A stretch of DNA of 32,000 bases from Nitratidesulfovibrio vulgaris str. Hildenborough (GTDB taxonomy: Bacteria > Desulfobacterota > Desulfovibrionia > Desulfovibrionales > Desulfovibrionaceae): assembly GCF_000195755.1 (NCBI RefSeq), contig NC_002937.3, positions 750,001 to 782,000 on the forward strand, given 5' to 3'. Below, piece after piece: positions 597 through 23,971 of this stretch. Made by a program: the position numbers and the translations under genes. The notes beneath the pieces are model-generated. The model had not been told where the DNA came from and did not search any database. It saw only the letters and a list, made by a program, of their open reading frames with translations. Position 1 is the stretch's first letter, and the number at the start of each line of letters is the position of its first letter.

Positions 597-641
597 GTGC
601 GGAAAAGCACGTGCGAATACGCACGGCGTGCGATTGCGCAC
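597..641. promoter_or_regulatory. three tandem palindromic sites, likely upstream activating sequence for an enhancer-binding protein
   Basis: GTGCGgaaaAGCAC (597..610), GTGCGaataCGCAC (611..624) and GTGCGattgCGCAC (628..641). The last site overlaps the first base of the response-regulator stop codon at 641..643. Confidence 0.55.
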
Positions 642-2107
642 TATTTGCGGAGGCGGCGCAGCAGGGCGAAGCGCGAGAGGCCGAGAAGGGTGGCCGCGCG
701 GGTCTTGTTTCCGTTGCAGCGTTGCAGGGCCTGTTCTACGAGGCGTTCGACGAACTCATGCAGGTTCATGCCCTCGTCAGGGATGCGAAAGTCTTCCGGT
801 GTCGACGTGAGGACTTCGTTGGCAGGGGGGCCCTCGGACCCGGTCCTGTGGGACACATCGTCCGAAAGCCTGATGGGGAGGACGAGGTGCTCCGGGCGAA
901 GCAGCGTCCCGTCATGCAGCAGGACCGCGCGTTCGATGGTGTTTTCCAGTTCGCGGACGTTACCCTTCCAGACGGCGCTTTGCAGCAGGGCGAGTGCTTC
1001 ATCGTCGATGCCCGTGAATTGCTTTTTCTTGCGGGCGGCTTCCCGGCGCAGGAAGAGGGCTGCCATCTCCGGGATGTCTTCGCGCCTTTCACGCAACGGT
1101 GGCAGGATGAGGTGCCCGACCCGAAGCCGATGATAGAGGTCGCGTCTGAACAGGCCGTTTTCGACCATCTGCTCGAGGTCGCGGTTGGCCGCGCATACGA
1201 TGCGTGCGCGGAAGTTGCGCCGCTTGAGGCCGCCCAGCCTGTAGAAGGTGCGTTCTTCAAGGACGCGCAAGAGCTTGGGTTGCAGATGCAAGGGCAGTTC
1301 AGCCACTTCGTCCAGGAAAAGAGTGCCGTCGGCTGCCAGTTCGAGCTTCCCCGGCGAGCCTCCGCTCCGGCTTCCGGTGTAGGCTCCCGCCTCGTGTCCG
1401 AAGAGCTCGCTCTCGAACAGTTCGGTGGGGATGGCGGCGCAGTTGAGGTCGATGAAGGGCCTGTCGTCGCCGTCGTGTCCGAAATGGACGAGTCTTGCCA
1501 CGACCTCCTTGCCGGTGCCCGTTTCGCCTTCGACAAGGACGGGTACGGAAGGGTCGGCATGGAAGATGGCGGCTTCTTCGAGGATGCGCCGCATGGCGGG
1601 CGAGGCTGTGACGATGTCTCCGATGCCCGAGACGTTGCGAAGCCGCAGACGAGCCGCTTCAAGGTCCTGCCGCAATGCCGTTGTGGCCTGCGCAACACGT
1701 CCTTCCATGTCGGAACGGAGAGTGGCGTTTTCCGAGACCAGCGCCATATGCTCTGCACAGCGGTCGACCACGATGGCGAGTTCGCGGGCGTTGATGGGCT
1801 TGTTGAGGTAGTCGTAGGCCCCGCGTCGCAGGGCTTCCACGGCTGTCTCCATGTCGCCGTGGCCGGTGATGAGGACCACATTGCTCTTCGCCGTGGCCGT
1901 ATCCGACTTGAGGTGGGCGAGAAGCTCAAGCCCGTCCATGTCAGGCATGCGGATGTCGGTGATTATCAGCGGGTAGAACGTACGGGCCGCTTCTTCGATG
2001 GCCCGGTGCGGATGCGGCACGGCAGTGGCCTGATGCCCGAGGTCTTCCAGCACGGTGCGGAGGCTTTCGAGGCTGGTGGCGTTGTCATCGACTATCAGGA
2101 TGCGCAA
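641..2107 (-). CDS. sigma54-dependent response regulator (NtrC family enhancer-binding protein)
   Basis: REC domain (MRILIVDD...ITDIRMPDMDG). AAA+ sigma54-interaction domain (GETGTGKE, ESELFGHEAGAYTGS, LFLDEV). C-terminal Fis-type HTH (NKTRAATLLGLSRFALLRRLRK). TTG start at 2107 with GGAGA 7 nt upstream. Overlaps the upstream kinase gene by 13 nt. Confidence 0.95.
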   Translation of the reverse strand: MRILIVDDNATSLESLRTVLEDLGHQATAVPHPHRAIEEAARTFYPLIITDIRMPDMDGLELLAHLKSDTATAKSNVVLITGHGDMETAVEALRRGAYDYLNKPINARELAIVVDRCAEHMALVSENATLRSDMEGRVAQATTALRQDLEAARLRLRNVSGIGDIVTASPAMRRILEEAAIFHADPSVPVLVEGETGTGKEVVARLVHFGHDGDDRPFIDLNCAAIPTELFESELFGHEAGAYTGSRSGGSPGKLELAADGTLFLDEVAELPLHLQPKLLRVLEERTFYRLGGLKRRNFRARIVCAANRDLEQMVENGLFRRDLYHRLRVGHLILPPLRERREDIPEMAALFLRREAARKKKQFTGIDDEALALLQSAVWKGNVRELENTIERAVLLHDGTLLRPEHLVLPIRLSDDVSHRTGSEGPPANEVLTSTPEDFRIPDEGMNLHEFVERLVEQALQRCNGNKTRAATLLGLSRFALLRRLRK

Positions 2108-4026
2108 GACGGGTCTCCGTTATCAGGCGTTGGTGCCGGTCCAAGACCGGAAGGGGACGGGCGGGAAGCTGCAGGACACGGGGGGGCTGCCTCCGAAGCG
2201 TTGAGCATGATGGTGAAAACCGCCCCGGTTCGTGGGGGGCGCCTGCTTGCTGCGGTGATGGTGCCGCCCCACGATTCGACGAACCCGTGGACCAGCGCAA
2301 GGCCCAGCCCCATGCCGGAATGGGCGTCCTTGGTGGTGAAGAAGGGGTCGAACACCCTGTCCTCCATGAGGCCGAGACCGGGCCCGTTGTCCTCGACGGA
2401 GAGCGCGACCCGGTTTCCGTGGCGTCTTGCAGAGACGGTGATGTCGCGCGCAGGCTGTCGTGATGCGTCGAGCGCGTGCATGGCGTTGACGATGAGGTTG
2501 ATCAGGGTCTGTTCAAGCTGCACTGGAACGGCGAGCACATCAGGAAGGTCGGGCGCGATGTCGAGCGACGCGTCGATGCCGTGATTGCGCAACTGCGCCC
2601 CGATGAGACCGAAGGCCTCGGCACAGGCATGGGCGATGGACGTGGGACGACACTGGATATCACCGTGCGTGACCAGCGCCCGCATGTGCTCGATGATGTC
2701 ACGTATGCGGTCCGCCTCGCGCAGGATGCGCGACAGCCGTTCGAGGAGCATGTCGCGGTCGACCACAGGTCGCTTCTCCACCAGCATCTCAAGCCCCCCG
2801 GCATACAGCCGCAACGCGCTCAGGGGCTGGTTGATTTCATGCGCGACGCCTGTGGCCAGTGTACCCAGTGCCTCCAGCCTGCGCGCCTGTGCCAGTTGAC
2901 GTTCGACGCGCAGCCGGTCGGTCTCGTCGTCAAGCATGATGACGGCCGCTTCGACAGACTGGCCCTGCGTGGAGATGGGGCAGGCCTGTAGCCTGAAGTT
3001 GCGCTCTTCGGGCTGCCCCGGCAGGTGCAGTACGAAGCTGCGCTGGTGCGTTGCGCCGTCTCGGAAGACATCGATGGCCGGGCAGCCTGAACAGCGGCTG
3101 TTGCCATCACCGCAGAAGTCATGAAGCAGTCTGCACAGGGGCATGCCCACTGGGTCGAGGCCGAACCACTGCAACATGCGGGGGTTGGCCGCTTCTATGC
3201 GCAGGGCGGGGTCGATGACGGCAATGCCCTGCGCAAGGTTGTCGGTAATCGACCGTGAACGCTCCTCGCTGCGTGAGAGCGCTTCAAGGGCCTTCACGCC
3301 TGTGGTGATGTCGAGCCCCAGTTTGAGCACAAGGGATGAGCCGTCGATATCCTCGAAGGGATAGGCGTACACCCTGAAGGCCGAACCGTTCTTCCGGGTC
3401 CAGTCGCTGACGCAGAGTGTGCGGGTCTCGAAGACTTCGCATGGCGGGCAGTGCGCACAGGGCGTGGGACTGCCGCGCAGTACTTCGTGGCAGGCCTTGC
3501 CCACCCCGGGGCCGAACAACTGCCGAGAAGCCCTGTTCTCGTAGCGAATCCTGTGGTCGGAACCTATCAGCATCACGTATCCCGGCAGCCTGTCCAGAAG
3601 GTTGAGCAGGCGCGAGCGTTCACTGCGAAGGTCGCCGGTGGGTATGCTCTCGGCAAGCGGCAGCGGCATGGCGGCGATGGTGGCACCGCTGCCCACGGGT
3701 CTGGCCGCTATCTGGATGTGGACGGGGCCCGAACGGCCACGAAGCGTGAGTGCGAAAGGCGAGAAGTCGCCACTGGCCTGCCGCAGAATGGCCCGTTCTA
3801 TGGTCGGCAGGTTGTTCTCGGACGAGAGGTCCGCGAGTAGCCTCGTGAGGAACTCCGCAGGGGGCCAGCCCGTGAGCGGTTGCAGGACGGCAGCTGTGGT
3901 GCCGAGAGGGGAACCGGAGCAGTCGGGCGCATCGGAAAGCTGCTCGACGAGGCGCGCGACGGCGGACGAGAAAGGGGTGTCCCCTTCAAGGAAGGGGGGA
4001 CTGATGGCGGAGGGGGGCGTGGGCAT
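2095..4026 (-). CDS. cytoplasmic sensor histidine kinase with two Cys-rich PAS domains
   Basis: H-box HEINQPLSAL and a HATPase_c domain (DNGPGL, GMGLGLALV). No TM segment seen. I chose the ATG at 4026 (MPTPPSAISPP...), 2 nt after the upstream gene stop (TGAccATG), because the longer ORF start at 4167 would overlap that gene by about 140 nt. Confidence 0.9.
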   Translation of the reverse strand: MPTPPSAISPPFLEGDTPFSSAVARLVEQLSDAPDCSGSPLGTTAAVLQPLTGWPPAEFLTRLLADLSSENNLPTIERAILRQASGDFSPFALTLRGRSGPVHIQIAARPVGSGATIAAMPLPLAESIPTGDLRSERSRLLNLLDRLPGYVMLIGSDHRIRYENRASRQLFGPGVGKACHEVLRGSPTPCAHCPPCEVFETRTLCVSDWTRKNGSAFRVYAYPFEDIDGSSLVLKLGLDITTGVKALEALSRSEERSRSITDNLAQGIAVIDPALRIEAANPRMLQWFGLDPVGMPLCRLLHDFCGDGNSRCSGCPAIDVFRDGATHQRSFVLHLPGQPEERNFRLQACPISTQGQSVEAAVIMLDDETDRLRVERQLAQARRLEALGTLATGVAHEINQPLSALRLYAGGLEMLVEKRPVVDRDMLLERLSRILREADRIRDIIEHMRALVTHGDIQCRPTSIAHACAEAFGLIGAQLRNHGIDASLDIAPDLPDVLAVPVQLEQTLINLIVNAMHALDASRQPARDITVSARRHGNRVALSVEDNGPGLGLMEDRVFDPFFTTKDAHSGMGLGLALVHGFVESWGGTITAASRRPPRTGAVFTIMLNASEAAPPCPAASRPSPSGLGPAPTPDNGDPSCAS

Positions 4027-4028
4027 GG

Positions 4029-6032
4029 TCAGTCTGTGGTGTGTTCGATGGGGGGCACTTCCGTCGTGCCCATGCCGGACAGAATGAGGCCGATGGTGCG
4101 CGAGAGCAATGATTCCAGTCGTGGAACGAGTTGCCTTGCTCCTGCGGTGTCGTCTTCGACAAGGCACAATCCCACGCGTTCCGTCAACATGGCAAGGGCC
4201 ACGGCGCCAGCATGCTCCGAAGCGAGGCGCAGCCGTTTGTTGAAGCGTGCGGCTTGTTGTGCGTCACCTTCTTCAAGGGCTCCGGCGAGCAGAGCGAAAT
4301 GCCGGGGGGCCTCATCGCAGAACGCCTTCCAGACCGGTTCGACAAGGTTGTGGTCTCCCCCGTGCCGCCGGACGACCTCGGACGGGGCAAGCAGGGCCGA
4401 CCTGTCGGGGATGACGGGAATGTCCCGCGCAGACGATGCCGAAAGGGCGAACCTGTCGAGCATGGCGTTGAAGGCTCGGGCGTTGATGGGCTTGGCGATG
4501 TAGTCGGTCATGCCCGAAGCCAGGAAGCGTTCGCGGTCGCCCTTGAGGGCATGTGCCGTGACGGCTACGACGGGGATGTTGCGGTCGACTCCGGGGTACT
4601 GGGCGTTGCGGATGCGTCGCAGCAATTCCAGCCCGCCCATGGGGTGCATCTTGACGTCCAGCAGGACGAGGTCGAACCGGTCGGCGGTGAGTCGCTGGAG
4701 GGCCGTGGCACCATCGTGGGCGCAGGCACAGACATGCCCTCTCTTGCGGAGCATCTTGCAGGTTATCGTCCGGCCCGTGGCGTCATCGTCCACCACCAGC
4801 ACCCGAAGCGGGCGTGCTCCTGATGCGGGTGTCGCTGAAGAGGTCGGGGCCTGAGCGTGTTCGGAAGGTGTGTTGATGGCAGGCGTCTCGGGCCGTAGAC
4901 GGCAGGTGAAGTGAAAGCTGCTTCCCTGTCCTTCGCTACTGCGGGCCCATATGCTGCCGCCCATGATTTCGACGAGGTTTCGGCAGATGGCGAGACCAAG
5001 CCCCGTGCCGCCATAGCGTTGGACCGTCTCTTCTGCACCCTGGCTGAACGCCTCGAAGATGGTGCGGAGGTGTTCATCGGCGATGCCGATGCCCGTGTCG
5101 CGAATGGAGAACAGCAGGGTGAGGCTTGAGGGCGGCCCGTCGGGAAAGAGCGATTCGAGAAGCGTCTGGTCCTGGGGGATGGCGCTCACTTCGATGATGA
5201 CCGAGCCCTTGTGGGTGAACTTGACGGCATTGCCGACGAGGTTGGCGAGTACCTGTGTAAGGCGTGTCGCGTCGCCTGTCAGTCTGTCCGGGACATCGGG
5301 CGTTACACGGAAGTCCAGGGAGATGTTCTTGCGTTCGGCTTCCGACCGCGATGCCTGCACAACCTGCTTCAGCAGTCTATCCAGTGAGAAGGGACGTTCC
5401 ACAAGCCGCAACTGGCGAGCCTCAAGCCGGGAGAAGTCGAGCACGTCGTGCAGCAGGGTGAGCAGCGTCTCGGAAGATGCAAGGACGGTGTTCAGGCTTT
5501 CGCGTTGTTCGCCCGACAGCGGGGTATCGAGGACCAGTTCCGTCATGCCCACGATGCCGTTCAGGGTGTTGCGTATTTCGTGGCTCATGCCTGCGAGGAA
5601 CGACGTCTTCGCAAGGCTGGCATGTTCCGCAGCCTGTCGGGCTTCGTCGATTTCGCGAACGGCCCTGTGCTTGAGCAGGGCGACCTCGATGGTGGAGTAG
5701 AGTTCGCGTTCGGCAAAGGGCTTGACAAGAAAGCCGAACGGCCCGGCTTTCATGGCCCTTGAGAGGGTCGCTTCGTCGGAGAAGGCGGTGAGAAAGACGA
5801 CAGGAATGTCGAACTGGTTGGTGATGACATGGGCGGCGTCTACGCCGTCACCGCGCCGCAGGCGGATGTCCATCAGAACGAGGTCCGGCCTGAGACGCTT
5901 CGCCGCATCGATGGCTCCGTCTGCATCCGTCTCGACGGCAGGCACTATGTACCCAAGACCTTCGAGCGTGCGCCGTAGATCAAGTGCGACGATCTGTTCG
6001 TCGTCGACGACGATGATACGAAGATTCGGCAT
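4029..6032 (-). CDS. hybrid histidine kinase: REC - HisKA/HATPase - REC - HPt-like tail
   Basis: N-terminal REC (RIIVVDDEQ...LVLMDIRL). H-box SHEIRNTLNGIVG. G2 box GTGLGLAICRNLVEIMGG. Second REC (RVLVVDDD...LVLLDVKM). C-terminal four-helix HPt-like region. ATG at 6032 (MPNLRIIVVDD) preceded by GGAG; the ORF-track start at 6086 is TTG with no RBS. Confidence 0.9.
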   Translation of the reverse strand: MPNLRIIVVDDEQIVALDLRRTLEGLGYIVPAVETDADGAIDAAKRLRPDLVLMDIRLRRGDGVDAAHVITNQFDIPVVFLTAFSDEATLSRAMKAGPFGFLVKPFAERELYSTIEVALLKHRAVREIDEARQAAEHASLAKTSFLAGMSHEIRNTLNGIVGMTELVLDTPLSGEQRESLNTVLASSETLLTLLHDVLDFSRLEARQLRLVERPFSLDRLLKQVVQASRSEAERKNISLDFRVTPDVPDRLTGDATRLTQVLANLVGNAVKFTHKGSVIIEVSAIPQDQTLLESLFPDGPPSSLTLLFSIRDTGIGIADEHLRTIFEAFSQGAEETVQRYGGTGLGLAICRNLVEIMGGSIWARSSEGQGSSFHFTCRLRPETPAINTPSEHAQAPTSSATPASGARPLRVLVVDDDATGRTITCKMLRKRGHVCACAHDGATALQRLTADRFDLVLLDVKMHPMGGLELLRRIRNAQYPGVDRNIPVVAVTAHALKGDRERFLASGMTDYIAKPINARAFNAMLDRFALSASSARDIPVIPDRSALLAPSEVVRRHGGDHNLVEPVWKAFCDEAPRHFALLAGALEEGDAQQAARFNKRLRLASEHAGAVALAMLTERVGLCLVEDDTAGARQLVPRLESLLSRTIGLILSGMGTTEVPPIEHTTD

Positions 6033-6155
6033 GTATCTCCGGTTCCGGGTTTCTTCGTGTATGCCCCGAAAAGGCTTCACATGCAAGGCGCGCCAAGGCC
6101 CGGAAAAGGCAGGAACGGCCCGGATTCCACGTGAGGGCTGGCGGTGAAGGGGCGA

Positions 6156-6251: not shown

Positions 6252-6950
6252 TCAGATGCGCTGGAGCACCCACACGATACGCCCGAAGATACGGTCGGCG
6301 TGCTGGTCGATGGGCAGATACTGCTCGGGGTGGGTGGGATTCTCTGTCCGGAGGATGAACCGGGCATTGGCAGCATCGAGGAACACCCGCTTGATGGCGA
6401 CACCCTCGAAGGGCATGAAGACGCCATAGAGTTCGCCCGAGACGATGTTCTTCTGGGTGGTGTCTATGCCGACGAAAGCACCCTTGCCGATGACGGGTTC
6501 CATGGCGCCTGCATCCACACGCACTATCTGCGTTCCGGGGGCGGCAAACGACTGGGGTACGGCAAGTTTGGCGATGGCCGTGAGCGGTTGCGAAACACCG
6601 TTCTCGTCGACAGCGCAGCCCATGGCGAACACAGTGGCGACACTGCTCTTGGCATCAGGGTCGCCGTAACGCGCGGGGTCTTCAAGCACGAGTCCGGCGA
6701 CGGGGGCGTCGAGCGGTTCATACCCCTGGTCGGTACGCAGGTACATGGGGCCGGAGCCCTTCTTGAGCCAGTCAGGATTCAGCCCGAACTTCTCGAACAG
6801 TTTCATGTACCAGTCGGAGGGGACGGAGTTGCGTCGTTTGGCGTCTGATATGCTCGACTGGCGAATGTCGAGGACTTCCGCCAGCTCGACCTGCGTTCTG
6901 GTGTTCGTGGCGAGCTTGATGCGCTCAAAGACTTCATCGAACGTAGACAA
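6252..6950 (-). CDS. phage CI-type HTH repressor with S24 (LexA/CI) peptidase-like C-terminal domain
   Basis: The N-terminus STFDEVFERIKLATNTRTQVELAEVLDIRQSSISDAKRRNSVPSDWYMKLFEKFGLNPDWLKKG looks like a CI-repressor HTH. The C-terminus VRVDAGAMEPVIGKGAFVGID...VAIKRV is an S24 fold. I chose the TTG at 6950 with GGAGAA 5 nt upstream. ATGs at 7040 and 7097 lie inside or upstream of the predicted promoter, so an annotated start could differ. Confidence 0.8.
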   Translation of the reverse strand: MSTFDEVFERIKLATNTRTQVELAEVLDIRQSSISDAKRRNSVPSDWYMKLFEKFGLNPDWLKKGSGPMYLRTDQGYEPLDAPVAGLVLEDPARYGDPDAKSSVATVFAMGCAVDENGVSQPLTAIAKLAVPQSFAAPGTQIVRVDAGAMEPVIGKGAFVGIDTTQKNIVSGELYGVFMPFEGVAIKRVFLDAANARFILRTENPTHPEQYLPIDQHADRIFGRIVWVLQRI

Positions 6951-7038
6951 TGCTTTTCTCCGGGCGGCGAAGCCGGGCCTGGGGCCTGGGCATCGCCTCT
7001 GATCTGAGTGCTCTCGTCTGTAGGGTATCCTAGCTACC

Positions 7039-7067
7039 ATTATAGACGAGTGCAACACTATTGTTGA
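7039..7067 (-). promoter_or_regulatory. sigma70-type promoter with overlapping palindromic operator for the repressor gene
   Basis: Minus strand TCAACA (7067..7062), 17-nt spacer, TATAAT (7044..7039). The palindrome CAACActatTGTTG (7053..7066) overlaps the -35 element. Confidence 0.45.
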
Positions 7068-7135
7068 AGAAGAGTACGCTCCGCGCTCCGGTTGCATGGA
7101 GCTAAAGGTCTTGCGTATGGCGTACTATGGCGAGC

Positions 7136-7200
7136 AAAAATCGGGCCACCAACGTGTCTTCGTGGAATCTCCAGCGAAGTGGCACGTATGGTGGCCCGAT
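7136..7200 (-). terminator. probable hflC terminator (long-loop hairpin plus U run)
   Basis: Minus strand AUCGGGCCACC (7200..7190) pairs with GGUGGCCCGAU (7150..7140), followed by a U run (A5 on the + strand at 7136..7140). The large 39-nt interior may fold further. Confidence 0.5.
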
Positions 7201-7278
7201 GTGTCACAATCGGAAGCCGATAGTGTCACACATGTTACATGTCTGTCTCGCTCATCTGTAACATGTCATGCGACACAA

Positions 7279-8130
7279 TCAGGGGCGAATCGGCTTGAGC
7301 AGCGGGTCATCGGGGGTGAGCACGAACCGCGTACCCTCTTTCAGCGAGTTGCGCAGCGTCTCAAGCCCGCGCATGAACTCGAAGAACTCGGGTGCCTGAC
7401 CGTAGGCGTTCGCGAAGGTGCGCGTCGCCACGGCGTCACCCTCACCACGGATGATCTCGGCCTTCTGGTTGGCTTCCGCCAGCAGTACGGCCCGCTCACG
7501 GTCGGCCAAGGAGCGGATCTTGGTCGACTCTTCCTGTCCTTCCGAGCGATATTGCTTGGCTTGCCGTTCGCGTTCGGCGCGCATGCGTCCGAAGATGGCG
7601 CGCTGGTTCTCGGCGGGCAGGTCGGTTCGCTTGATGCGCACGTCGATGACCTCCATGCCGTATTCGGACATGAGTTCAGAGGTGCGACGTGTCACTTCGG
7701 TCATGATCTCTGCACGCTTGGAGGCGACCACTTCGGTGAGGGTATGCCGTCCCACATGGACACGCAGCTGCGAGTAGACCATGTCGTCAAGGCGGGTCTG
7801 GGCACCGGGAATGGTCCGTACGGTGCGGTAGAAGGTCAGCGGGTCGGTGATGCGCCAGCGTGCGTAGTTGTCGAGTACGATGGCCTTCTTGTCGCTGGTG
7901 AGGGCCTCGGCGGAGCGGGCGTCATAATCGAGCATCCGTGCATCGAAGAAGATCACGTTCTGTATGAAGGGCAGCTTGAAGTGCAACCCCGGCCCGGAAA
8001 CTTGTCCGACAGGTTCACCAAGTTGCAGTACGATGGCCTTCTGCGTCTGGTGCACGGTGTAGAAACTCTGCCCGCCGATGATGAACACGGCCAGCACGGC
8101 AATGAGGAGGGTGAGGCTCTTGCGGCTCAT
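7279..8130 (-). CDS. hflC: HflC, band-7/SPFH modulator of FtsH protease
   Basis: MSRKSLTLLIAVLAVFIIGGQSFYTVHQTQKAIVLQLGEP... shows a single N-terminal TM segment plus an SPFH domain. ATG at 8130 with GGGAGG 8 nt upstream, 1 nt after the hflK stop. The ORF-track start at 8202 overlaps hflK. Confidence 0.95.
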   Translation of the reverse strand: MSRKSLTLLIAVLAVFIIGGQSFYTVHQTQKAIVLQLGEPVGQVSGPGLHFKLPFIQNVIFFDARMLDYDARSAEALTSDKKAIVLDNYARWRITDPLTFYRTVRTIPGAQTRLDDMVYSQLRVHVGRHTLTEVVASKRAEIMTEVTRRTSELMSEYGMEVIDVRIKRTDLPAENQRAIFGRMRAERERQAKQYRSEGQEESTKIRSLADRERAVLLAEANQKAEIIRGEGDAVATRTFANAYGQAPEFFEFMRGLETLRNSLKEGTRFVLTPDDPLLKPIRP

Positions 8131-8131
8131 G

Positions 8132-9268
8132 CTAGTTGCCTCCCTTCGTACCGGTCTGTGGCGCGGGTGTGAGTCTGTCCAGCGGCAGATAGGGCAGGAC
8201 ACGGCCTGCGGTCTCGCGAGGCAGGATGATGCGCTCGACGCCGTTGCGCGAGAGAATCTCCTGCATGGTCTCGAAGTACAGGCGCTTGCGCGTCACGTCC
8301 TTGGCCGCGTTGTATTCCTTGAGCACGGCGATGAAGCGTTGGGCCTCGCCTTCGGCCTGTCGGGTGCGGGTCTCTCGGTAGCCTTCGGCCTGGTTGACGA
8401 GTTCAGCCGCCGCGCCACGGGTGCGGGGCAGGAGTTCGTTGCGGTAGGCTTCGGCCTCGTTGACGATGCGGCTCTTGTCCTCGCGGGCGGAGGCGACATC
8501 CTTGAAGGCGTCGATGACCTCCTTGGGCGGGTGCACGTCCTGCATCTGAACTGCGAGCACGCGGATGCCAACCTTGTATCGGTCGAGAATCTCCTGAAGC
8601 AGCGTCGTCGTTTCGTTCTGGATACGAAGCTTGCCGTCAGTGAGTGCCGCGTCGATGAGGCTGTTGCCGATGATCTCGCGCATGGCCGCCTCCGCGGCAT
8701 TGCGGACTACGGCCGCCTGGTCGGTGACGTTGAAGAGGTACTCCACAGGGTCCTTGATCTGATACTGCACGCTGAACTGCACGTTGACGATGTTCTCGTC
8801 ACCGGTCAGCATGGCGGCCTCTTCGGGGAAGACGCGTCCCTGTCCCTGCTGGAAGGTGGCGCCCTGCGTCGGCGAGCGGAATCCTATCTCCACCCGTTGC
8901 ACCTGCGTCACCTTGGGCTTGTAGACCCGTTCAACAGGGAAGGGCAGGTGGTAGTGCGGGCCGGGGCCGACAGTACGGTCGTACTGTCCGAACCGGAGCA
9001 CCACCCCTGCTTCGTCGGGGTTGATGATGTAGACACCGGAAAGAAGCCACAGGACGGCCACAGCCGCTGCGGCAAGTTTGCCGGTAGGAAACGGGAATTC
9101 GCGGAAGCGGCGGAACGAATCGCCAAGCTTCTCGAAGTCCGGCCCGGAGGGCGGAGGCGTATCGCCTTGGTCGCCGCCACCCCAGCCGCCCGTCTGCCGC
9201 TGCCGTTTTTCTTGCAGTTTGTCCCAATCCCAGTTCATAATACTGAAAAAATAGGGCAGTTGTTGCAT
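8132..9268 (-). CDS. hflK: HflK, band-7/SPFH modulator of FtsH protease
   Basis: Gly-rich N-terminus, TM segment (AAAAVAVLWLLSGVYII) and SPFH domain, directly upstream of hflC. The start is uncertain: ATG at 9268 or the in-frame ATG at 9238 (MNWDWDKLQEK...). Neither has a clear SD. Confidence 0.9.
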   Translation of the reverse strand: MQQLPYFFSIMNWDWDKLQEKRQRQTGGWGGGDQGDTPPPSGPDFEKLGDSFRRFREFPFPTGKLAAAAVAVLWLLSGVYIINPDEAGVVLRFGQYDRTVGPGPHYHLPFPVERVYKPKVTQVQRVEIGFRSPTQGATFQQGQGRVFPEEAAMLTGDENIVNVQFSVQYQIKDPVEYLFNVTDQAAVVRNAAEAAMREIIGNSLIDAALTDGKLRIQNETTTLLQEILDRYKVGIRVLAVQMQDVHPPKEVIDAFKDVASAREDKSRIVNEAEAYRNELLPRTRGAAAELVNQAEGYRETRTRQAEGEAQRFIAVLKEYNAAKDVTRKRLYFETMQEILSRNGVERIILPRETAGRVLPYLPLDRLTPAPQTGTKGGN

Positions 9269-9319
9269 CAGGTCAAGGCAAGACCTCGGCGCGGACTGCT
9301 TTATGGAGGATGAGCCATC

Positions 9320-10681: not shown

Positions 10682-10740
10682 CATCGGGTGTGGTATCGTG
10701 TCCGACCGGATGAGTGCGGTCAGGACAAGGAGACTGTGAC

Positions 10741-11253
10741 ATGAAGATTCTCAAGGCGAACCGGATGGAGCGCTGTATCGGCTGCCATGCCTGTTCCCTC
10801 GCCTGTGCGCGGCTTGTGCACAAGCGTCTGTCGTGGGTGACGGCCGGAATCCGCATCACGTCGGCAGGCGGGCTTTCGACAGGGTTCGAGGCGCGCCTGT
10901 GTCTTGCCTGCGACCCCGCACCCTGTGCGCAGGCCTGCCCGACCGGTGCCTACGCGCAACGCAAGGGTGGCGGCGTGAAGGTCGACAGGTCGCTGTGCAT
11001 CCGTTGCGGGCGTTGCGCCGAAGCCTGCCCGGTGGATGCCGTGCACATGGACGGTGAGACCGGCCTGCCCTACGTGTGCATCCACTGCGGGCGTTGTGTG
11101 GCCTTCTGCCCCCATGAATGTATCGAACTGGTCGACCAGCCCGTGGCCGATGCCGCATCGGACGAAGCGGGAAGGGAGACGGGTGACGACAAGGCCCTGC
11201 CGCGAAAGGCAGGGCTGGTGAATGACGCTTCGGAGGTGGGGCATGCCGATTGA
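10741..11253 (+). CDS. 4x[4Fe-4S] ferredoxin-type subunit associated with AOR
   Basis: Four Cys clusters: CIGCHACSLAC, CLACDPAPCAQACP, CIRCGRCAEACP and CIHCGRCVAFCP. ATG at 10741 with AAGGAGA 7 nt upstream. The 3' end overlaps the aor start by 11 nt. Confidence 0.9.
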   Translation: MKILKANRMERCIGCHACSLACARLVHKRLSWVTAGIRITSAGGLSTGFEARLCLACDPAPCAQACPTGAYAQRKGGGVKVDRSLCIRCGRCAEACPVDAVHMDGETGLPYVCIHCGRCVAFCPHECIELVDQPVADAASDEAGRETGDDKALPRKAGLVNDASEVGHAD

Positions 11254-13006
11254 AGGAACCGCCTCGCGCGTGCTGCATGTGGACCTTGAGTCGGGTGCCT
11301 CGCGTGTGCTGCTTTTCGAGGGACGCCCGCACCATCTCGGCGGCAGCGGGCTTGCCGCTGCACTGTATGACGCCTACGGGTTGCCGGAATCTCCGGCTTT
11401 CGACCCGCGGCAGCCGCTCATCTTCGCCATCGGACCGCTTTCGGGGTTCTTTCCCCTCATGAGCAAGGTCGTGTGCGGCTTCCGTTCGCCGTACACGGGA
11501 GAATGGGCCGAGAGTCACGCGGGGGGACGTCTTGCCCTGTCGCTGCGCTTCGCGGGATATGACGCGCTGATGATCACCGGACGGGCGCGAACGCTCTCAT
11601 GTCTTGTCGTGGGGTCGCGTCGTCTCGAAATCCACGATGTCCACTACCTGCGCGGACAGGACGTGTTCACTTCCGGGAAGTATCTGCGTCGCTATGGCAA
11701 GGAGTCGTCAGGGCATCGTAGCACGGTGCGCATCGGGCCTGCGGGCGAGCGTGGTGTCACCTTCGCGTGCGCCAACGTCGACTCGTTCCGGCATTTCGGA
11801 CGACTGGGCGCAGGTGCCGTCATGGGCGGCAAGAATCTCAAGGCGCTGGTCGTGACGGGCGACTCGGGCATCGAACTGCCTGAAGGGCGCGACTATCCGA
11901 AACTCTACAAGGAAGTGTACCAGTCGGTCACCGGTACCGACATGATGCAGAAGTACCACGACCTCGGCACTGCCGAGAACCTGCTGGTGCTCAATGAACT
12001 GAAGGCGTTGCCGTGGCGCAACCTGCAAGCCACGACAGACCCCGCCATCGACGGCATCTCTGGCGAACGGTTCGCGGAACAGCTTCTGCTGCGGCAGACC
12101 GCCTGCGCGGGCTGTCCGGTGGGGTGCATCCACATCGGGCTGCTGCGACAGCAGTTCGCCCGCGACCACGAGTTCCTCTACAAGCAGGTGTCATACGACT
12201 ACGAACCCATCTTCGCGCAGGGTTCCATGCTGGGCCTGACCAACGCCTCCGACGTGCTTGCCCTGCTCGATGAGACGGAGAAACTCGGCCTTGACTGCAT
12301 GAGCGCCGGTGTCGCACTGGCATGGGTGGCGGAGGCGTTCGAAAAGGGTGTCGTCACCGAGAAGGAGACGCTGGGCCCGGTGCACTTCGGCAACGTGGCC
12401 ACGTTCGTCGCCGCGCTGCACCACCTTGCCAACGGAACCTCCGAATTCTGGCAGGCGTTGGGCAAGGGGGTGCTGTATGCCGCAGACATCTACGGCGGTG
12501 CCGACTTCGCCTGTGTCCTCGGTCAGGAGATGGCAGGCTATGCCACGGGCGAGGTGTATTTCGTCTCACAGGCCCTGGGGTTCAGGCATTCGCATCTCGA
12601 CAGCGGCGGCTATGCCTACGACCAGTCCGCCAAGGACAAGGACGTGGACAAGGCCGTGCGGCATCTGCTGGATGACGAGTACAAAAGGCTGACCATCAAC
12701 TGCATGGTGGCCTGTCTCTTCGCCCGCAAGGCCTACCCGCCGGAACGCCTTCAGGAGGCCCTTGCCTCTCTCGGCATGCGCGCCGAGGCCGATGCCCTGC
12801 CCGAGTCGGGGCGTGCCATGCAGGCCCTGCGGTGGTCGCTCAAGTTCCGCACGGGGTTCCGTCCGGAGAACGTGCGTATCCCCAAACGGTTCACCGAGGT
12901 CGTCACATGGAAGGGCCCCATGGACGTCGACTACATGGATGCCGTGCGACAGGCCTACACGTCCGAGTTGTACCGCATGGTGGTGGACGCCGCACGGGAG
13001 GCATAG
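11243..13006 (+). CDS. aor: aldehyde:ferredoxin oxidoreductase family (tungstopterin enzyme)
   Basis: AOR-family N-terminus (RVLHVDLESG...LGGSGLAAALY), GRLGAGAVMGGKNLKALVV and the cluster motif CAGCPVGCIH plus a distal Cys (MVACLFA). ATG at 11243 preceded by GGAGG. Confidence 0.93.
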   Translation: MPIEGTASRVLHVDLESGASRVLLFEGRPHHLGGSGLAAALYDAYGLPESPAFDPRQPLIFAIGPLSGFFPLMSKVVCGFRSPYTGEWAESHAGGRLALSLRFAGYDALMITGRARTLSCLVVGSRRLEIHDVHYLRGQDVFTSGKYLRRYGKESSGHRSTVRIGPAGERGVTFACANVDSFRHFGRLGAGAVMGGKNLKALVVTGDSGIELPEGRDYPKLYKEVYQSVTGTDMMQKYHDLGTAENLLVLNELKALPWRNLQATTDPAIDGISGERFAEQLLLRQTACAGCPVGCIHIGLLRQQFARDHEFLYKQVSYDYEPIFAQGSMLGLTNASDVLALLDETEKLGLDCMSAGVALAWVAEAFEKGVVTEKETLGPVHFGNVATFVAALHHLANGTSEFWQALGKGVLYAADIYGGADFACVLGQEMAGYATGEVYFVSQALGFRHSHLDSGGYAYDQSAKDKDVDKAVRHLLDDEYKRLTINCMVACLFARKAYPPERLQEALASLGMRAEADALPESGRAMQALRWSLKFRTGFRPENVRIPKRFTEVVTWKGPMDVDYMDAVRQAYTSELYRMVVDAAREA

Positions 13007-16526: not shown

Positions 16527-17786
16527 TTACTTGCGGTTCAACTCCGCTTCCTGCGGGAAGATGGGCAGATAGCGGTAGGAGAGGCTGAGCACGAGGGCAG
16601 CATAGGCGACGATCATCACGCTGGCACCCCATTCGGCCCAGTTCGGCAGGTAGCTTTCCCACGAGTCGAAGGGCATGACCGGGATGGCGAGTGCCTGCAC
16701 GGTCATGACGTAGCGGTTGATGGTGATGCCGATGCAGTCGAGGATGGCTGCGCTGTAGAACAGCACAGGGTTGTTGCGCAGGGCGGGCACGATGAGGATG
16801 ATGGCAGGAACCAGACCGCAGTAGAACAGTTCGGCCCACAGCATCCACTTGCCGTAAATCCAGCCGCTGGTGAACATCTGATCGAAGGTCAGCCCCTGAC
16901 GCGGGAGCAGGTCGTAGGCCCACGCGTAGGTGTCGGCGAACTTGAAGATCAGGTAGACCATGAGCATGGTACCGGCGATCTTGCCCATGAGGCTCTTCAC
17001 TTCCCACGACACCAGCTTGCGGCCGGTCATCTTCTCCATGAGCGTGCAGACCAGCACCGTGAACACCGGGCCGGAGCCCACGGCGGAGAGCACGTACAGG
17101 AAGAAGGTCCAGGGCCAGATGAAGAAGCCTTCGCGGTAGATGTAGGGACGGCCGAAGAGGACGCCGTACATGCCACCGAGCGAACCCTGGTGGAAGGTGG
17201 AGAGGAAGGCACCGATACCGGCGAACAGCGGCATCATGACGTGGAAGTTATGCGCCACGGCATGCACCAGCTTGTTCTTGTTGAGCTGACGGTTTTCGAG
17301 GATCAGCGGGACGTACTCGATGATGAGCACGAGGCAGTAGCACGTGATGCAGAAGATGACTTCGGTGAGCATCGAGTGCACGTTGGCGTGCCAGTAGCCG
17401 AACCATGCGCGAAGCGGCTGGCCGATGTCGAGCACGAGCACGAGCATGGCACCCGAGTAGCACAGAAAGCCGATGATGACGGCAAGGTTGATGATGTTCT
17501 TCAGCGGGTCGATGTTCAGGATGTAGCGCAGCAGACCCGAGAAGAACGCACCGGCACCGAGGGCGATGACGGCAAGGTCGAACGTGATCCAGAGGCCGAA
17601 ACCGAAGTAGTCGTCAAGCCCGGTCACGCCGAGGCCTTCGGCGAGGACGCGGTAGGCCGCGTACAGACCCCAGCCGAAGAACACGAACACGAAGGCCATC
17701 CACATCATGAACTTGGAGAGTGAGCAGCGCTCGCAGCCCTCCGGGAACAGTTCGGCATCGACGGGAAGGTTGTAGTTCTTGTCCAT
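16527..17786 (-). CDS. qrcD: QrcD, NrfD/PsrC-type integral membrane quinone-interacting subunit
   Basis: About 10 hydrophobic helices in an NrfD-like protein. Last gene of a cytochrome c / molybdopterin-like / FeS / NrfD four-gene cluster. Confidence 0.93.
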   Translation of the reverse strand: MDKNYNLPVDAELFPEGCERCSLSKFMMWMAFVFVFFGWGLYAAYRVLAEGLGVTGLDDYFGFGLWITFDLAVIALGAGAFFSGLLRYILNIDPLKNIINLAVIIGFLCYSGAMLVLVLDIGQPLRAWFGYWHANVHSMLTEVIFCITCYCLVLIIEYVPLILENRQLNKNKLVHAVAHNFHVMMPLFAGIGAFLSTFHQGSLGGMYGVLFGRPYIYREGFFIWPWTFFLYVLSAVGSGPVFTVLVCTLMEKMTGRKLVSWEVKSLMGKIAGTMLMVYLIFKFADTYAWAYDLLPRQGLTFDQMFTSGWIYGKWMLWAELFYCGLVPAIILIVPALRNNPVLFYSAAILDCIGITINRYVMTVQALAIPVMPFDSWESYLPNWAEWGASVMIVAYAALVLSLSYRYLPIFPQEAELNRK

Positions 17787-17789
17787 GAC

Positions 17790-18557: not shown

Positions 18558-18569
18558 GACGTACGTTCC

Positions 18570-20645: not shown

Positions 20646-20660
20646 TGCACCACCCCTCTG

Positions 20661-21293: not shown

Positions 21294-21352
21294 ACCCTTC
21301 GCCTCAGCAGGTTTGAAGATGGATAACGATAGCCCACACTTGCCAAGCAACC

Positions 21353-23795: not shown

Positions 23796-23971
23796 AGGAC
23801 ATCCTTCATGCGTTTTTCAGCACCCTAACCGAGGCGTCGCCTTTTTTGAAGAGGCGGGGTAGAATAAGAGTCTATTGCCGTGCTCAGACAGATGGGGTAG
23901 GTAGCTGATTGTTTGTATCTCCATAACATGATTTTCTTTATATATCAGTGAATACCGTGGGGGCGGGAGGA

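What the first reader, a model, noticed from the sequence alone, without database searches (positions are those of the whole stretch)
3082..3492. Recurrent four-cysteine insertion in PAS domains of unrelated sensors in this window
Three PAS domains carry a Cys cluster at the same place, just before a conserved (E/D)VF strand. PAS1 of the kinase at 2095..4026 has C-x10-C-x2-C-x2-C (ACHEVLRGSPTPCAHCPPCEVF, 3439..3492). PAS2 of the same protein has C-x6-C-x6-C-x2-C (LCRLLHDFCGDGNSRCSGCPAIDVF, 3082..3135). The PAS domain of the frameshifted hybrid kinase has C-x2-C-x8-C-x2-C (RCYGCYFRGEKQCDACQIAEVF, 24209..24253). The chemoreceptor PAS domain has a reduced CPTC version. Four Cys with CxxC pairs suggests a metal (Zn or Fe) or Fe-S/redox-sensing site rather than the usual haem or flavin pocket. 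In an anaerobe this could be a common redox or metal input module. I do not recognise it as a characterised PAS subclass.
Basis: partly seen in the sequence, partly recalled or inferred. Interest (0 to 1): 0.5.

Follow-up and report, generated by a model that had tools for sequence, protein, structure and literature searches.

The report
Cysteine-triad PAS sensor domains, probable metal site
Three sensor domains in this sulfate-reducer fragment belong to one large, uncharacterised, so far anaerobe-only PAS subfamily whose three conserved cysteines probably hold an iron-sulfur cluster or zinc, much like the known redox sensors NreB and OrpR.

Summary
The cysteines are real and sit at the stated coordinates, but the description needs correcting. 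The conserved unit is a cysteine triad, C-x10(-13)-C-x2-C, not four cysteines. It is not an insertion. The (E/D)VF that follows lies in the F-alpha helix, not in a strand.

The fourth cysteine differs by domain:
- PAS1: lineage-specific, present in 4 of 58 orthologues.
- PAS2: conserved in 37 of 59 orthologues.
- Hybrid kinase: conserved in all 5 distinct sequences, as CxxC-x7-CxxC.

The three domains are homologous members of one PAS subfamily. A profile of PAS1 finds 1,664 clusters (50% identity) at E<=1e-30, with up to 11 matched stretches per protein. In 340 domains the triad is all-or-none: 274 complete and 34 absent, against 0.8 absent expected by chance. Every named member comes from a strict anaerobe (Desulfovibrionaceae, Desulfosarcinaceae, Methanosarcina).

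AlphaFold gives canonical PAS folds (pLDDT 93 and 86). C1 starts the E-alpha helix and C2xxC3 precede the F-alpha helix. No solved structure or paper describes this subfamily.

The closest known cases are the Fe-S PAS domains of NreB and of Desulfovibrio OrpR (three Cys, [4Fe-4S]). I favour an Fe-S redox sensor (about 0.45) over a zinc site (about 0.3). This is a new variant of a known kind.

The parts
2095..4026 (-). HK1: a soluble sensor histidine kinase. It has a conserved N-terminal region, then PAS1, PAS2, HisKA and HATPase_c.
   Evidence: Pfam hits are. It is identical to database protein P0001 (643 aa). The same three-gene arrangement occurs on 4 metagenome contigs.
3274..3627 (-). PAS1 domain of HK1 (ORF residues 181-298).
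   Evidence: AlphaFold2 pLDDT 93.2 with canonical PAS topology. Foldseek finds LOV, DosP and FixL PAS domains. This domain seeded profile A1.
3412..3492 (-). PAS1 cysteine region: triad C226, C237, C240 (C-x10-C-x2-C), lineage-specific C243, and C252 at C3+12.
   Evidence: Translation. In 58 orthologues C1/C2/C3 are kept in 56/55/57, C243 in 4 and C252 in 25. C252 occupies the column that is His in 148 of 274 triad-bearing family domains.
2902..3282 (-). PAS2 domain of HK1 (ORF residues 296-422).
   Evidence: Pfam PAS_4 5.8e-11 and PAS_8 2e-9. AlphaFold2 pLDDT 86.4. Foldseek finds PAS domains.
3082..3135 (-). PAS2 four-cysteine cluster: C345, C352, C359, C362 (C-x6-C-x6-C-x2-C).
   Evidence: Translation. 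Among 59 orthologues, 37 have the four-Cys pattern, 3 have a three-Cys pattern and 13 have 0-1 Cys. The loop between the second and third Cys varies from 6 to about 90 aa.
3046..3048 (-). His374 of PAS2, at C3+12. It is a candidate extra ligand or pocket residue.
   Evidence: His is present in 32 of 40 orthologues that keep the Cys site and in 5 of 13 that lost it. In the wider family, His at +12/+13 occurs in 165 of 274 triad domains and 2 of 34 Cys-less domains.
641..2107 (-). NtrC-type sigma-54 response regulator (REC, AAA+, HTH_8). Its start overlaps the HK1 stop by 13 nt, so it is the presumed partner.
   Evidence: Pfam. The gene order is conserved in loci L002-L005.
4029..6086 (-). Hybrid kinase (REC, HisKA, HATPase, REC, Hpt) immediately upstream of HK1. 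It is probably in the same operon or phosphorelay.
   Evidence: Pfam. Conserved neighbour.
23948..25650 (+). HK2: a PAS, HisKA, HATPase, REC hybrid kinase, frameshifted in this window near 25105.
   Evidence: Pfam. It is an intact 567-aa protein in two other assemblies (L008, L010). The window has a 1-nt deletion next to a G run.
24062..24442 (+). PAS domain of HK2, a member of the same Cys-triad subfamily.
   Evidence: The A1 profile scores it at 42.6 bits, E 6e-13, with C88, C99 and C102 aligned to C1, C2 and C3.
24209..24253 (+). HK2 four-cysteine cluster: C88, C91, C99, C102 (C-x2-C-x7-C-x2-C).
   Evidence: Translation. All four Cys are kept in orthologues at 79%, 71% and 65% identity (L009, L011, L012, L013).
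26930..27310 (-). PAS domain of the chemoreceptor (gene 26063..28519). It has only CPTC (27128..27139).
   Evidence: Pfam PAS_4 and PAS_9. The A1 profile does not detect it at E<=10. A forced alignment places CPTC at C2/C3 with C1 absent.

Best explanation
PAS1 and PAS2 of HK1 and the PAS domain of HK2 belong to one large PAS subfamily. It is defined by a cysteine triad: C1 is the first residue of the E-alpha helix, and C2-x2-C3 sit in the loop that caps the F-alpha helix. A variable fourth residue is added. This can be an extra Cys 3 to 7 residues after C1 on the same short helix, a Cys or His at C3+12 at the start of the G-beta strand, or neither.

I propose that the triad ligates a metal cofactor on the helical side of the canonical PAS pocket. 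In these Desulfovibrionaceae kinases the cofactor is most likely a redox- or oxidant-sensitive Fe-S cluster, as in OrpR and NreB.

Proposed mechanism: oxidation, loss or ligand exchange of the cluster would reposition the E-alpha and F-alpha helices against the beta-sheet. The change would pass through the C-terminal D-(I/V/E)-T motif and the helical linker to the HisKA domain. That would set autophosphorylation of the soluble kinase HK1 and hence the activity of its sigma-54 response regulator. HK2 would feed its own receiver domain.

Shown here: the residues, their conservation and all-or-none behaviour, the homology of the three domains, the PAS fold, the secondary-structure positions, the size of the family and its anaerobe labels.

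Inferred, not shown: that the thiols converge, that a metal is bound, that the metal is Fe-S rather than Zn, and the signalling route.
For: 1. Conservation among HK1 orthologues: triad kept in 55-57 of 58; PAS2 four-Cys pattern in 37 of 59. The HK2 four Cys are kept down to 65% identity.
2. All-or-none behaviour in 340 family domains: 274 CCC and 34 with none, against 0.8 expected. The C1-C2 spacing is x10 in 266 of 276. In the orthologues the PAS2 cysteines are lost together.
3. Positions that co-vary with the Cys state: His at C3+12/+13 in 60% of triad domains against 6% of Cys-less ones. Residue 101 on the I-beta strand is Glu in 84% of triad domains, His in 24 of 26 of a two-Cys variant, and Gly or Ala in Cys-less domains. 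C1+1 is aromatic or His in 274 of 274 triad domains.
4. Structure: confident PAS models, with C1 at the start of helix 46-51 and C2/C3 in the coil just before helix 61-68. Local pLDDT is 93-97. PAS2 behaves likewise.
5. Extra cysteines fall 3, 4, 5 or 7 residues after C1, that is on the same short helix.
6. Precedent: OrpR of Desulfovibrio vulgaris has a PAS domain with three conserved Cys (C52, C61, C65) binding a redox-sensitive [4Fe-4S] cluster (PMC8359166). NreB PAS binds a [4Fe-4S] cluster through CX2CX11CX2C, or a [2Fe-2S] cluster through three Cys plus a labile sulfur (PMC13478379). In both, the Cys lie in the same stretch between B-beta and G-beta.
7. All named family members come from strict anaerobes: Desulfovibrio and Nitratidesulfovibrio, Desulfosarcinaceae, a Deltaproteobacteria MAG, Methanosarcina horonobensis and a Euryarchaeota MAG.
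8. HK1 and HK2 have no Pfam match to a membrane or extracellular sensor domain and, read by eye, no hydrophobic stretch; no transmembrane prediction was run. They therefore appear to sense something cytoplasmic.
Against: - No coordinates could be obtained, so the key geometric test (S-S distances) was not done.
- No metal data exist.
- The motif spacing differs from both characterised Fe-S PAS types, and no sequence link to NreB or OrpR was shown.
- PAS1 lacks a conserved fourth ligand. About a third of triad domains in the family (88 of 274) have neither the His nor a fourth Cys.
- Wholesale loss of the Cys set in otherwise conserved orthologues (13 of 59 for PAS2) is the classic behaviour of structural zinc sites. 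So are tandem arrays of triad PAS domains in one protein (up to 5 triad domains counted, up to 11 matched stretches).
- The models keep ordinary E-alpha and F-alpha helices. In the NreB crystal structure this region is mostly loop wrapped around the cluster.
- The acidic residue at C1+2, proposed as a ligand in OrpR, is equally common in Cys-less PAS domains here (72% against 76%), so it is not diagnostic.
- The taxon sample is small and comes from the top of a ranking seeded with a Desulfovibrio profile.
Confidence: 0.45

Rival explanations
1. The site is a zinc site (Cys3His, Cys4, or Cys3 plus water) that staples the E-alpha helix to the F-alpha N-cap. It would be mainly structural, or a Zn-occupancy or thiol-oxidation switch. 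The true signal would be read elsewhere in the pocket.
For: - The CxxC knuckle immediately precedes a helix, a second ligand pair lies on a neighbouring helix, and Pro usually precedes C2.
- Ligands swap between Cys and His in a sister variant: C1, His at C1+5, C3-P-H, with C2 replaced by Pro.
- The whole Cys set is lost sporadically in orthologues that keep the rest of the protein.
- PAS2 has a variable-length loop between the ligand pairs.
- Proteins carry several copies.
- AlphaFold folds the domain confidently without a cofactor.
- Zinc regulation of a PAS domain has a precedent in WalK, though through His, Asp and Glu ligands (10.1101/405365, listed).
Against: - Every named member comes from a strict anaerobe. 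A purely structural zinc staple would not be expected to be restricted in this way.
- Site-linked residues on the inner face of the sheet (His at G-beta, Glu or His at I-beta position 101) suggest a cofactor larger than one ion bridging lid and sheet. This is inference.
- The only experimentally studied Cys-triad PAS domain of a Desulfovibrio binds [4Fe-4S] (PMC8359166).
Confidence: 0.3
2. The cysteines form a metal-free thiol/disulfide switch. The CxxC at the F-alpha N-terminus would cycle between dithiol and disulfide, with C1 as a resolving or partner cysteine, and would report cytoplasmic thiol redox state or sulfane sulfur.
For: - CxxC at a helix N-terminus is the thioredoxin-type arrangement (established knowledge; position).
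- The chemoreceptor PAS keeps only CPTC.
- Cys-based redox control of a PAS domain is known for ArcB (my own knowledge, not checked here).
Against: - Three, often four, Cys co-vary as one unit with fixed x10 and x2 spacing, together with His and Glu positions. A disulfide switch needs only two.
- The cytoplasm of a sulfate reducer at about -400 mV rarely oxidises dithiols.
Confidence: 0.1
3. The pocket binds haem b, with Cys (Cys-Pro) and/or His as axial ligands, as in Cys-ligated haem sensors of the RcoM or CooA type.
For: - The HK1-type domains have C-x2-C-P, and the sister variant has C-P-H with several conserved His. Cys-Pro is a known haem regulatory motif (my own knowledge).
- Foldseek neighbours include the haem PAS domains DosP and FixL and a new haem PAS entry, 10jx.
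Against: - Haem needs at most two axial ligands, not an all-or-none triad.
- In the wider family the residue after C3 is mostly Glu (119 of 274), not Pro.
- No conserved F-alpha His of FixL or DosP type is seen in PAS1, PAS2 or HK2.
Confidence: 0.05
4. The cysteines are inherited features of a PAS lineage with no collective function.
For: The three window domains are homologous, so recurrence within the window is not independent evidence.
Against: All-or-none conservation across 340 domains from bacteria and archaea, fixed spacing and co-varying positions.
Confidence: 0.02

Closest known systems
OrpR (DVU2106) PAS domain of Desulfovibrio vulgaris Hildenborough: a redox-sensing [4Fe-4S] cluster on three Cys (PMC8359166)
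   Same: - Cytoplasmic PAS sensor domain of a Desulfovibrio regulator feeding sigma-54 transcription.
- Three fully conserved Cys at roughly the same place in the domain: C52, C61, C65 in OrpR against domain positions 46, 57, 60 here. The C1-to-C3 span is 13 against 14 residues.
- No obligatory fourth Cys.
- An acidic residue at C1+2 is present in PAS1 (C226-H-E228).
   Different: - The spacing is C-x8-C-x3-C against C-x10-C-x2-C.
- OrpR is a one-component enhancer-binding protein, not a histidine kinase.
- Sequence homology could not be tested because the OrpR sequence was not obtainable with these tools.
- PAS2 and HK2 lack the acidic residue at C1+2 and have a fourth Cys instead.
NreB PAS domain: Staphylococcus carnosus [4Fe-4S] on CX2CX11CX2C; Bacillus licheniformis [2Fe-2S] on CX2CX11C plus a labile sulfur (PMC13478379)
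   Same: - The PAS domain of a soluble histidine kinase uses 3-4 Cys, between strand B-beta and strand G-beta, to hold an Fe-S cluster that controls kinase activity.
- HK2 has the same CxxC...CxxC order.
- The three-Cys B. licheniformis form shows that a triad with a non-protein fourth ligand can work.
   Different: - The spacer is 7 residues (HK2) or the motif order differs (PAS1 and PAS2: single Cys first, CxxC last).
- NreB uses a HisKA_3 kinase and a LuxR-type partner. Here it is HisKA with an NtrC-type partner.
- No detectable sequence similarity to any PDB chain.
- In the NreB crystal structure the E/F helices are largely replaced by loop, whereas the models here keep them.
Generic cofactor-binding PAS domains (LOV, FixL, DosP, NifL)
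   Same: - Same fold; these are the best Foldseek matches.
- The motif G-(K/R)-x-C at the start of E-alpha resembles the LOV G-R-N-C-R-F-L-Q motif, so C1 may be the positional equivalent of the LOV photoactive Cys. This is my own reading.
   Different: No flavin or haem ligand signature. Three to four Cys take its place.
FhuF-type [2Fe-2S] motif C-C-x10-C-x2-C (PMC8068687, listed)
   Same: Identical x10 and x2 spacing. A few family members even read CC-x10-C-x2-C.
   Different: Unrelated fold. This is a resemblance of motif only, and the paper was not read.

Membership tests
PAS fold (Pfam PAS clan) | Significant match to PAS profiles | tested here: met
   PAS2: PAS_4 at 5.8e-11 and PAS_8 at 2e-9. 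The HK2 PAS and the MCP PAS match PAS_4. PAS1 gives no clear Pfam match; its only support on this row is its use as the seed of profile A1, which also detects the HK2 PAS and PAS2.
PAS fold (Pfam PAS clan) | Five-stranded antiparallel sheet flanked by the C-alpha to F-alpha helices | tested here: met
   AlphaFold2 pLDDT 93.2 and 86.4 with the order beta-beta-alpha-alpha-alpha-beta-beta-beta. Foldseek to LOV, DosP, FixL and Rv1364c gives E 5e-6 to 5e-7, TM about 0.7.
Cys-triad PAS subfamily (defined here by profile A1) | Match to the profile with Cys at C1, C2 and C3 in register (C-x10-C-x2-C) | tested here: met
   PAS1 164 bits (it is the seed). HK2 PAS 42.6 bits with C88, C99 and C102 in register. 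PAS2 17 bits with a 3-residue insertion, giving x13. The chemoreceptor PAS is not a member: no hit at E<=10 and C1 is absent.
Cys-triad PAS subfamily (defined here by profile A1) | His at C3+12/13 and Glu at I-beta position 101, the majority state of the family | tested here: inconclusive
   PAS1 has Cys252 and Lys at these positions. PAS2 has His374 and Ile. HK2 has Lys and Glu (the last two assignments were read by eye from the sequences). Each window domain has only part of the majority signature.
NreB-type Fe-S PAS | Motif CX2CX11C(X2C) | tested here: not met
   PAS1 is C-x10-C-x2-C. PAS2 is C-x6-C-x6-C-x2-C. HK2 is CX2CX7CX2C, with the same order but a shorter spacer (NreB motif from PMC13478379).
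NreB-type Fe-S PAS | Sequence homology to the NreB PAS domain | not tested
   No NreB sequence was available. The PDB sequence copy gave no Cys-PAS hit. The Foldseek library ends on 2026-04-08 and returned no NreB entry.
NreB-type Fe-S PAS | Cys located between B-beta and G-beta, in the region of the E/F helices | tested here: met
   DSSP of the models puts C1 at helix 46-51 and C2/C3 in the coil at 57-60 before helix 61-68. In NreB, C63, C66 and C78 lie between beta2 (39-43) and beta3 (89-91).
NreB-type Fe-S PAS | HisKA_3 kinase with a NreC (LuxR-type) regulator | tested here: not met
   HK1 and HK2 carry HisKA PF00512. The partner is a sigma-54 NtrC-type regulator.
OrpR-type Fe-S PAS | Three conserved Cys, C-x8-C-x3-C, with Asp or Glu at C1+2 | tested here: not met
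   The spacing here is x10/x2. Glu at C1+2 is present only in PAS1. In the family it is no more frequent in triad domains (72%) than in Cys-less domains (76%).
OrpR-type Fe-S PAS | Sequence homology to the OrpR PAS domain | not tested
   The OrpR sequence is not in any collection I could query by name, and the paper's supplement is not held.
Any Fe-S or Zn protein | Three or four thiols converging within ligand distance; bound metal | not testable with these tools
   Structure prediction returns no coordinates and none are written to /data. No experimental data exist.

The most novel reading that the evidence does not exclude
The C-x10-C-x2-C PAS domains would be a major, unrecognised class of cytoplasmic metallo-sensor modules of strict anaerobes, both bacteria and methanogenic archaea. 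They would carry an Fe-S cluster in the canonical PAS pocket, held by a Cys3 lid plus His and Glu from the sheet. They would be evolutionarily separate from NreB and OrpR and often strung in tandem, so that one kinase reads redox potential at several thresholds or passes electrons along the array.
Probability: 0.25. Interest if true: 0.75.

Novelty: new variant of a known kind. Interest (0 to 1): 0.5.

Why it matters
PAS domains are the commonest cytoplasmic sensor modules, and most have no assigned cofactor. If the triad binds an Fe-S cluster, at least about 1,700 protein clusters (at 50% identity) of kinases in sulfate reducers and methanogens would gain a testable input signal: redox potential, O2, NO or sulfide. 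The handful of known Fe-S PAS sensors (NreB, OrpR) would become the visible tip of a much larger class. If the site binds zinc instead, it defines a metal-stapled PAS variant. It would also warn against reading Cys motifs in anaerobe sensors as redox sites. Either way, the motif gives a simple handle for annotating these domains and for choosing Cys-to-Ser mutants.

Tried and rejected
- A homologue search with the 244-aa PAS1+PAS2 fragment found nothing, although the identical full-length protein is in the collection. The search with profile A1 returned only 8 short proteins.
- The scan of GTDB species genomes found no close relative of HK1.
- Sequence and profile searches of the PDB and Foldseek against the PDB found only generic PAS domains. 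There was no Cys-cluster PAS and no NreB entry.
- NCBIfam on the isolated domains gave only generic sensory_box hits and weak kinase hits.
- tblastn of a family domain against plasmids gave one Hymenobacter hit, which has no Cys. This is uninformative for taxonomy.
- Test for compensation between the His and an extra Cys: extra Cys is not enriched in triad domains that lack the His. It goes the other way (odds ratio 0.38, p = 8e-4), because a C1+4 Cys subfamily also has the His. A simple 'one of two fourth ligands' model is therefore rejected.
- The acidic residue at C1+2 as an OrpR-like ligand is not specific to Cys-bearing domains.
- Equivalence of C1 to the LOV cysteine: hhalign was insignificant. 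I keep it only as a lead.
- Cys396 ('ACP' on H-beta of PAS2) as a fifth ligand: it is kept in 50 of 59 orthologues, including ones that lost the cluster cysteines. It is probably unrelated.
- Literature searches for the motif and for 'Cys-rich' or 'Fe-S' PAS terms found no description of this subfamily. The library lacks most subscription journals.
- Model coordinates were looked for in the sandbox and not found.
Full report
**What is in the sequence**

The window is 63% G+C. It encodes typical anaerobe functions:
- an aldehyde:ferredoxin oxidoreductase with a ferredoxin;
- a gene cluster for a molybdopterin oxidoreductase, a 4Fe-4S protein, an NrfD-type membrane protein and a cytochrome c3.

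The kinase of the finding, HK1, is window 2095..4026 on the minus strand. It is identical to a database protein seen on several metagenome contigs. Its orthologues are labelled Desulfovibrio, Nitratidesulfovibrio or Desulfovibrionaceae.

- PAS1 has C226, C237, C240 and C243 (690-aa ORF numbering; nt 3492..3439), plus C252.
- PAS2 has C345, C352, C359 and C362 (nt 3135..3082).
- The hybrid kinase HK2 has C88, C91, C99 and C102 (nt 24209..24253). Its spacing is C-x2-C-x7-C-x2-C, not x8.
- The chemoreceptor PAS has only CPTC (27128..27139).

Pfam sees only generic PAS models in these regions.

**What is conserved**

A full-length search returned 59 orthologues of HK1 at 40-100% identity.
- PAS1: C1, C2 and C3 are kept in 56, 55 and 57 of 58 sequences. 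C252 is Cys in 25 and Ser in 21.
- PAS2: a four-Cys pattern is present in 37 of 59 and a three-Cys pattern in 3. In 13 sequences the cysteines are gone altogether while the rest of the domain is kept. The loop between the second and third cysteine ranges from 6 to about 90 residues.
- PAS1 against PAS2: PAS1 keeps its triad in 55 proteins, 15 of which have lost the PAS2 site. PAS1 loses it only where PAS2 has lost it too.
- HK2: a metagenome scan gave orthologues at 79%, 71% and 65% identity, and all four cysteines are kept.

The common denominator of the three domains is therefore a triad, C-x10(-13)-C-x2-C. A fourth cysteine is fixed in PAS2 and HK2 but not in PAS1.

**The three domains are one family, and the family is large**

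A profile built from 40 PAS1 sequences (A1) detects the HK2 PAS at 42.6 bits (E 6e-13) and PAS2 at 17 bits, with the cysteines in register. It does not detect the chemoreceptor PAS.

I ran the same profile against 1.84 billion representative proteins. It gives 48,656 hits at E<=1e-3, 12,730 at E<=1e-10 and 1,664 at E<=1e-30, with up to 11 matched stretches in one protein.

In 340 full-length domains from the top 147 proteins:
- 274 have all three cysteines and 34 have none, against 0.8 expected if the columns were independent.
- 26 have C1 and C3 only.
- The C1-C2 spacing is x10 in 266 of 276.

The family consensus reads G-(R/K)-x-C-(Y/F/H)-E-x-x-F-G-R-x-E-P-C-E-x-C-(E/P/Q)-x-(Y/F)-K-V-L-x-T-G-x-P-H-x-W-E-W.

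Several other columns track the cysteine state:
- C1+1 is aromatic or His in all 274 triad domains.
- His at C3+12/+13 is present in 60% of triad domains and 6% of Cys-less ones.
- A residue on the last strand (column 101) is Glu in 84% of triad domains, His in 24 of 26 two-Cys domains, and Gly or Ala in Cys-less domains.
- About 18% of triad domains add a Cys at C1+4.

Two caveats apply. The profile was built from Cys-bearing sequences, and the ranking favours multi-copy proteins. The proportions therefore describe the top of the list, not the whole family.

Every member that carries a source name is from a strict anaerobe: Desulfovibrio spp., Desulfosarcinaceae, a Deltaproteobacteria MAG, Methanosarcina horonobensis and a Euryarchaeota MAG. 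The sample is small.

**Structure**

AlphaFold2 with the orthologue alignments gives confident canonical PAS folds: PAS1 pLDDT 93.2 and PAS2 86.4.
- In PAS1, C1 is the first residue of the short E-alpha helix (46-51).
- C2 and C3 lie in the coil immediately before the F-alpha helix (61-68).
- The following EVF lies inside that helix.
- C252 opens the next strand.

There is no insertion relative to ordinary PAS domains. Foldseek against the PDB returns LOV, DosP, FixL, NifL and Rv1364c domains, with none carrying a Cys cluster. Sequence and profile searches of the PDB find nothing specific.

The tool returns no coordinates and none are stored. The extra cysteines in HK2 (C1+3), in the family (C1+4) and in PAS2 orthologues (C1+5 or C1+7) all sit on the same short helix as C1. 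That is where a fourth ligand would be expected, but this is inference.

**Comparison with what is known**

Two experimentally characterised PAS types use cysteines to hold Fe-S clusters.
- NreB of Staphylococcus carnosus binds an O2-labile [4Fe-4S] cluster through CX2CX11CX2C. NreB of Bacillus licheniformis binds a [2Fe-2S] cluster through three Cys (C63, C66, C78) plus a labile sulfur ligand, shown by a 1.52 A crystal structure (PMC13478379).
- OrpR of Desulfovibrio vulgaris Hildenborough is a sigma-54 activator. Its N-terminal PAS domain has three conserved Cys (C52, C61, C65) and binds a redox-sensitive [4Fe-4S] cluster. Mutating the three Cys makes the regulator blind to redox potential (PMC8359166).

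In both, the cysteines lie in the same part of the fold as here. The motifs differ, however: x8/x3 and x2/x11 against x10/x2. The kinase class and partner differ from NreB, and I could not obtain the OrpR or NreB sequences to test homology.

A recent survey of PAS diversity mentions only the NreB-type Cys motif, in nine domains (PMC10468136). Text searches for the motif or for Cys-rich or Fe-S PAS terms found nothing on this subfamily. I therefore treat it as an uncharacterised variant of a known kind, not as a member of either known family.

**Mechanism and rivals**

The all-or-none cysteine set, the fixed spacing and the co-varying His and Glu positions make a shared metal site by far the most likely reading. 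I put this at about 0.8 overall. It covers the Fe-S (0.45), zinc (0.3) and, loosely, the haem (0.05) readings scored separately below.

I favour an Fe-S cluster (0.45) for these reasons:
- the Desulfovibrio precedent;
- the anaerobe-only labels;
- the tolerance of a missing fourth Cys, as in OrpR and B. licheniformis NreB;
- site-linked residues on both the helical lid and the inner sheet, which suggest a cofactor larger than one ion.

A zinc site (0.3) is a serious rival:
- CxxC knuckles at helix N-termini are typical of zinc sites;
- Cys and His swap in the sister variant;
- the ligand set is lost wholesale in otherwise conserved orthologues;
- the loops between ligand pairs vary in length;
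- several copies occur per protein;
- the models keep normal E/F helices.

A metal-free dithiol/disulfide switch (0.1) would not need three or four co-varying cysteines. Haem ligation through Cys-Pro or His (0.05) does not explain the triad. Chance is excluded.

The expected output path is the usual one for in-line PAS domains. Each of the three ends in a D-(I/E/V)-T motif followed by a helical linker to the next PAS or to HisKA (the motif's role is established knowledge and was not tested here).

HK1 lies between a hybrid kinase with an Hpt domain (4029..6086) and an NtrC-type sigma-54 regulator (641..2107). Its stop overlaps the regulator's start, and the arrangement is conserved on four contigs. 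The regulated genes are unknown.

**Verdict**

- Observation: partly confirmed. The residues and coordinates are right. 'Four', 'insertion', 'strand' and 'x8' need correction.
- Interpretation: partly supported. The metal is undetermined.
- Novelty: a new variant of a known kind.
- Interest: moderate. The idea is not new, but the family is very large, is so far seen only in anaerobes, has no structure or biochemistry, and is easy to test.

Noticed in passing
window 25095..25115 (HK2): The HK2 frameshift is a 1-nt deletion beside a G run. The window reads CTCATGGGGGGGACATC, while two other metagenome assemblies of the same gene read CTCATGGG(A/G)GGTGACATC and encode an intact 567-aa PAS, HisKA, HATPase, REC protein. 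It is an assembly or sequencing error, or a strain-specific pseudogene.
   Followed up: yes
family members P0223, P0228, P0233, P0237, P0253 and others (not in the window): A sister variant of the same PAS family replaces C2 by Pro. It carries C1, His at C1+5, C3-P-H, His at +12 and His at I-beta column 101 (consensus 'CY.AVHG...PP.FCPH...DG.EH..EVHE'; 26 of 340 domains). That makes two Cys plus up to four His, probably a different metal or cofactor site.
   Followed up: partly
window 2980..2982 (Cys396 of HK1 PAS2): A further Cys, in an 'A-C-P' motif at the end of the H-beta strand, is kept in 50 of 59 orthologues. These include sequences that lost the cluster cysteines. PAS1 has Tyr at the equivalent 'Y-P' position. 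Its role is unknown.
   Followed up: partly
family members, e.g. P0129 (1709 aa), P0278 (Methanosarcina horonobensis, 1944 aa): Triad PAS domains occur in tandem arrays, with up to 11 matched stretches per protein and 5 full triad domains counted in one. This is striking if each holds a cofactor.
   Followed up: partly
window 3630..4026 (HK1 residues 1-133 of P0001): The N-terminal region of about 130 aa is conserved among orthologues (e.g. 'LTGWPPAEFLTRL'). It has only a sub-threshold Pfam PAS hit (E 1.7e-4) and may be a degenerate PAS-like domain.
   Followed up: no
window 641..6086, minus strand: Three tightly packed signalling genes: a hybrid kinase with Hpt, then HK1, then a sigma-54 regulator. 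The gap between the first two is 2 nt and the last two overlap by 13 nt. The order is conserved on four independent contigs, which suggests a branched phosphorelay.
   Followed up: partly
window 10714..13006 and 16527..21350: Redox enzyme clusters next to the sensors. One is a polyferredoxin with an aldehyde:ferredoxin oxidoreductase. The other encodes a cytochrome c3-like protein, a molybdopterin oxidoreductase, a 4Fe-4S protein and an NrfD membrane subunit, on the minus strand.
   Followed up: no
window 6252..7097, minus strand: A CI/LexA-like repressor (phage CI HTH plus S24 peptidase) lies directly upstream of the kinase operon. The adjacent ORFs 7096..9313 have no Pfam match.
   Followed up: no
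literature; P0130, P0140, P0275: The [2Fe-2S] motif of the siderophore reductase FhuF is C-C-x10-C-x2-C, the same spacing as the PAS triad. A few family members read CC-x10-C-x2-C. This is a resemblance of motif only, in an unrelated fold.
   Followed up: no
tool behaviour: The word-indexed homologue search missed the identical protein when queried with a 244-aa internal fragment. With a domain profile it returned only short proteins. The exhaustive HMM search was needed to see the family.
   Followed up: yes
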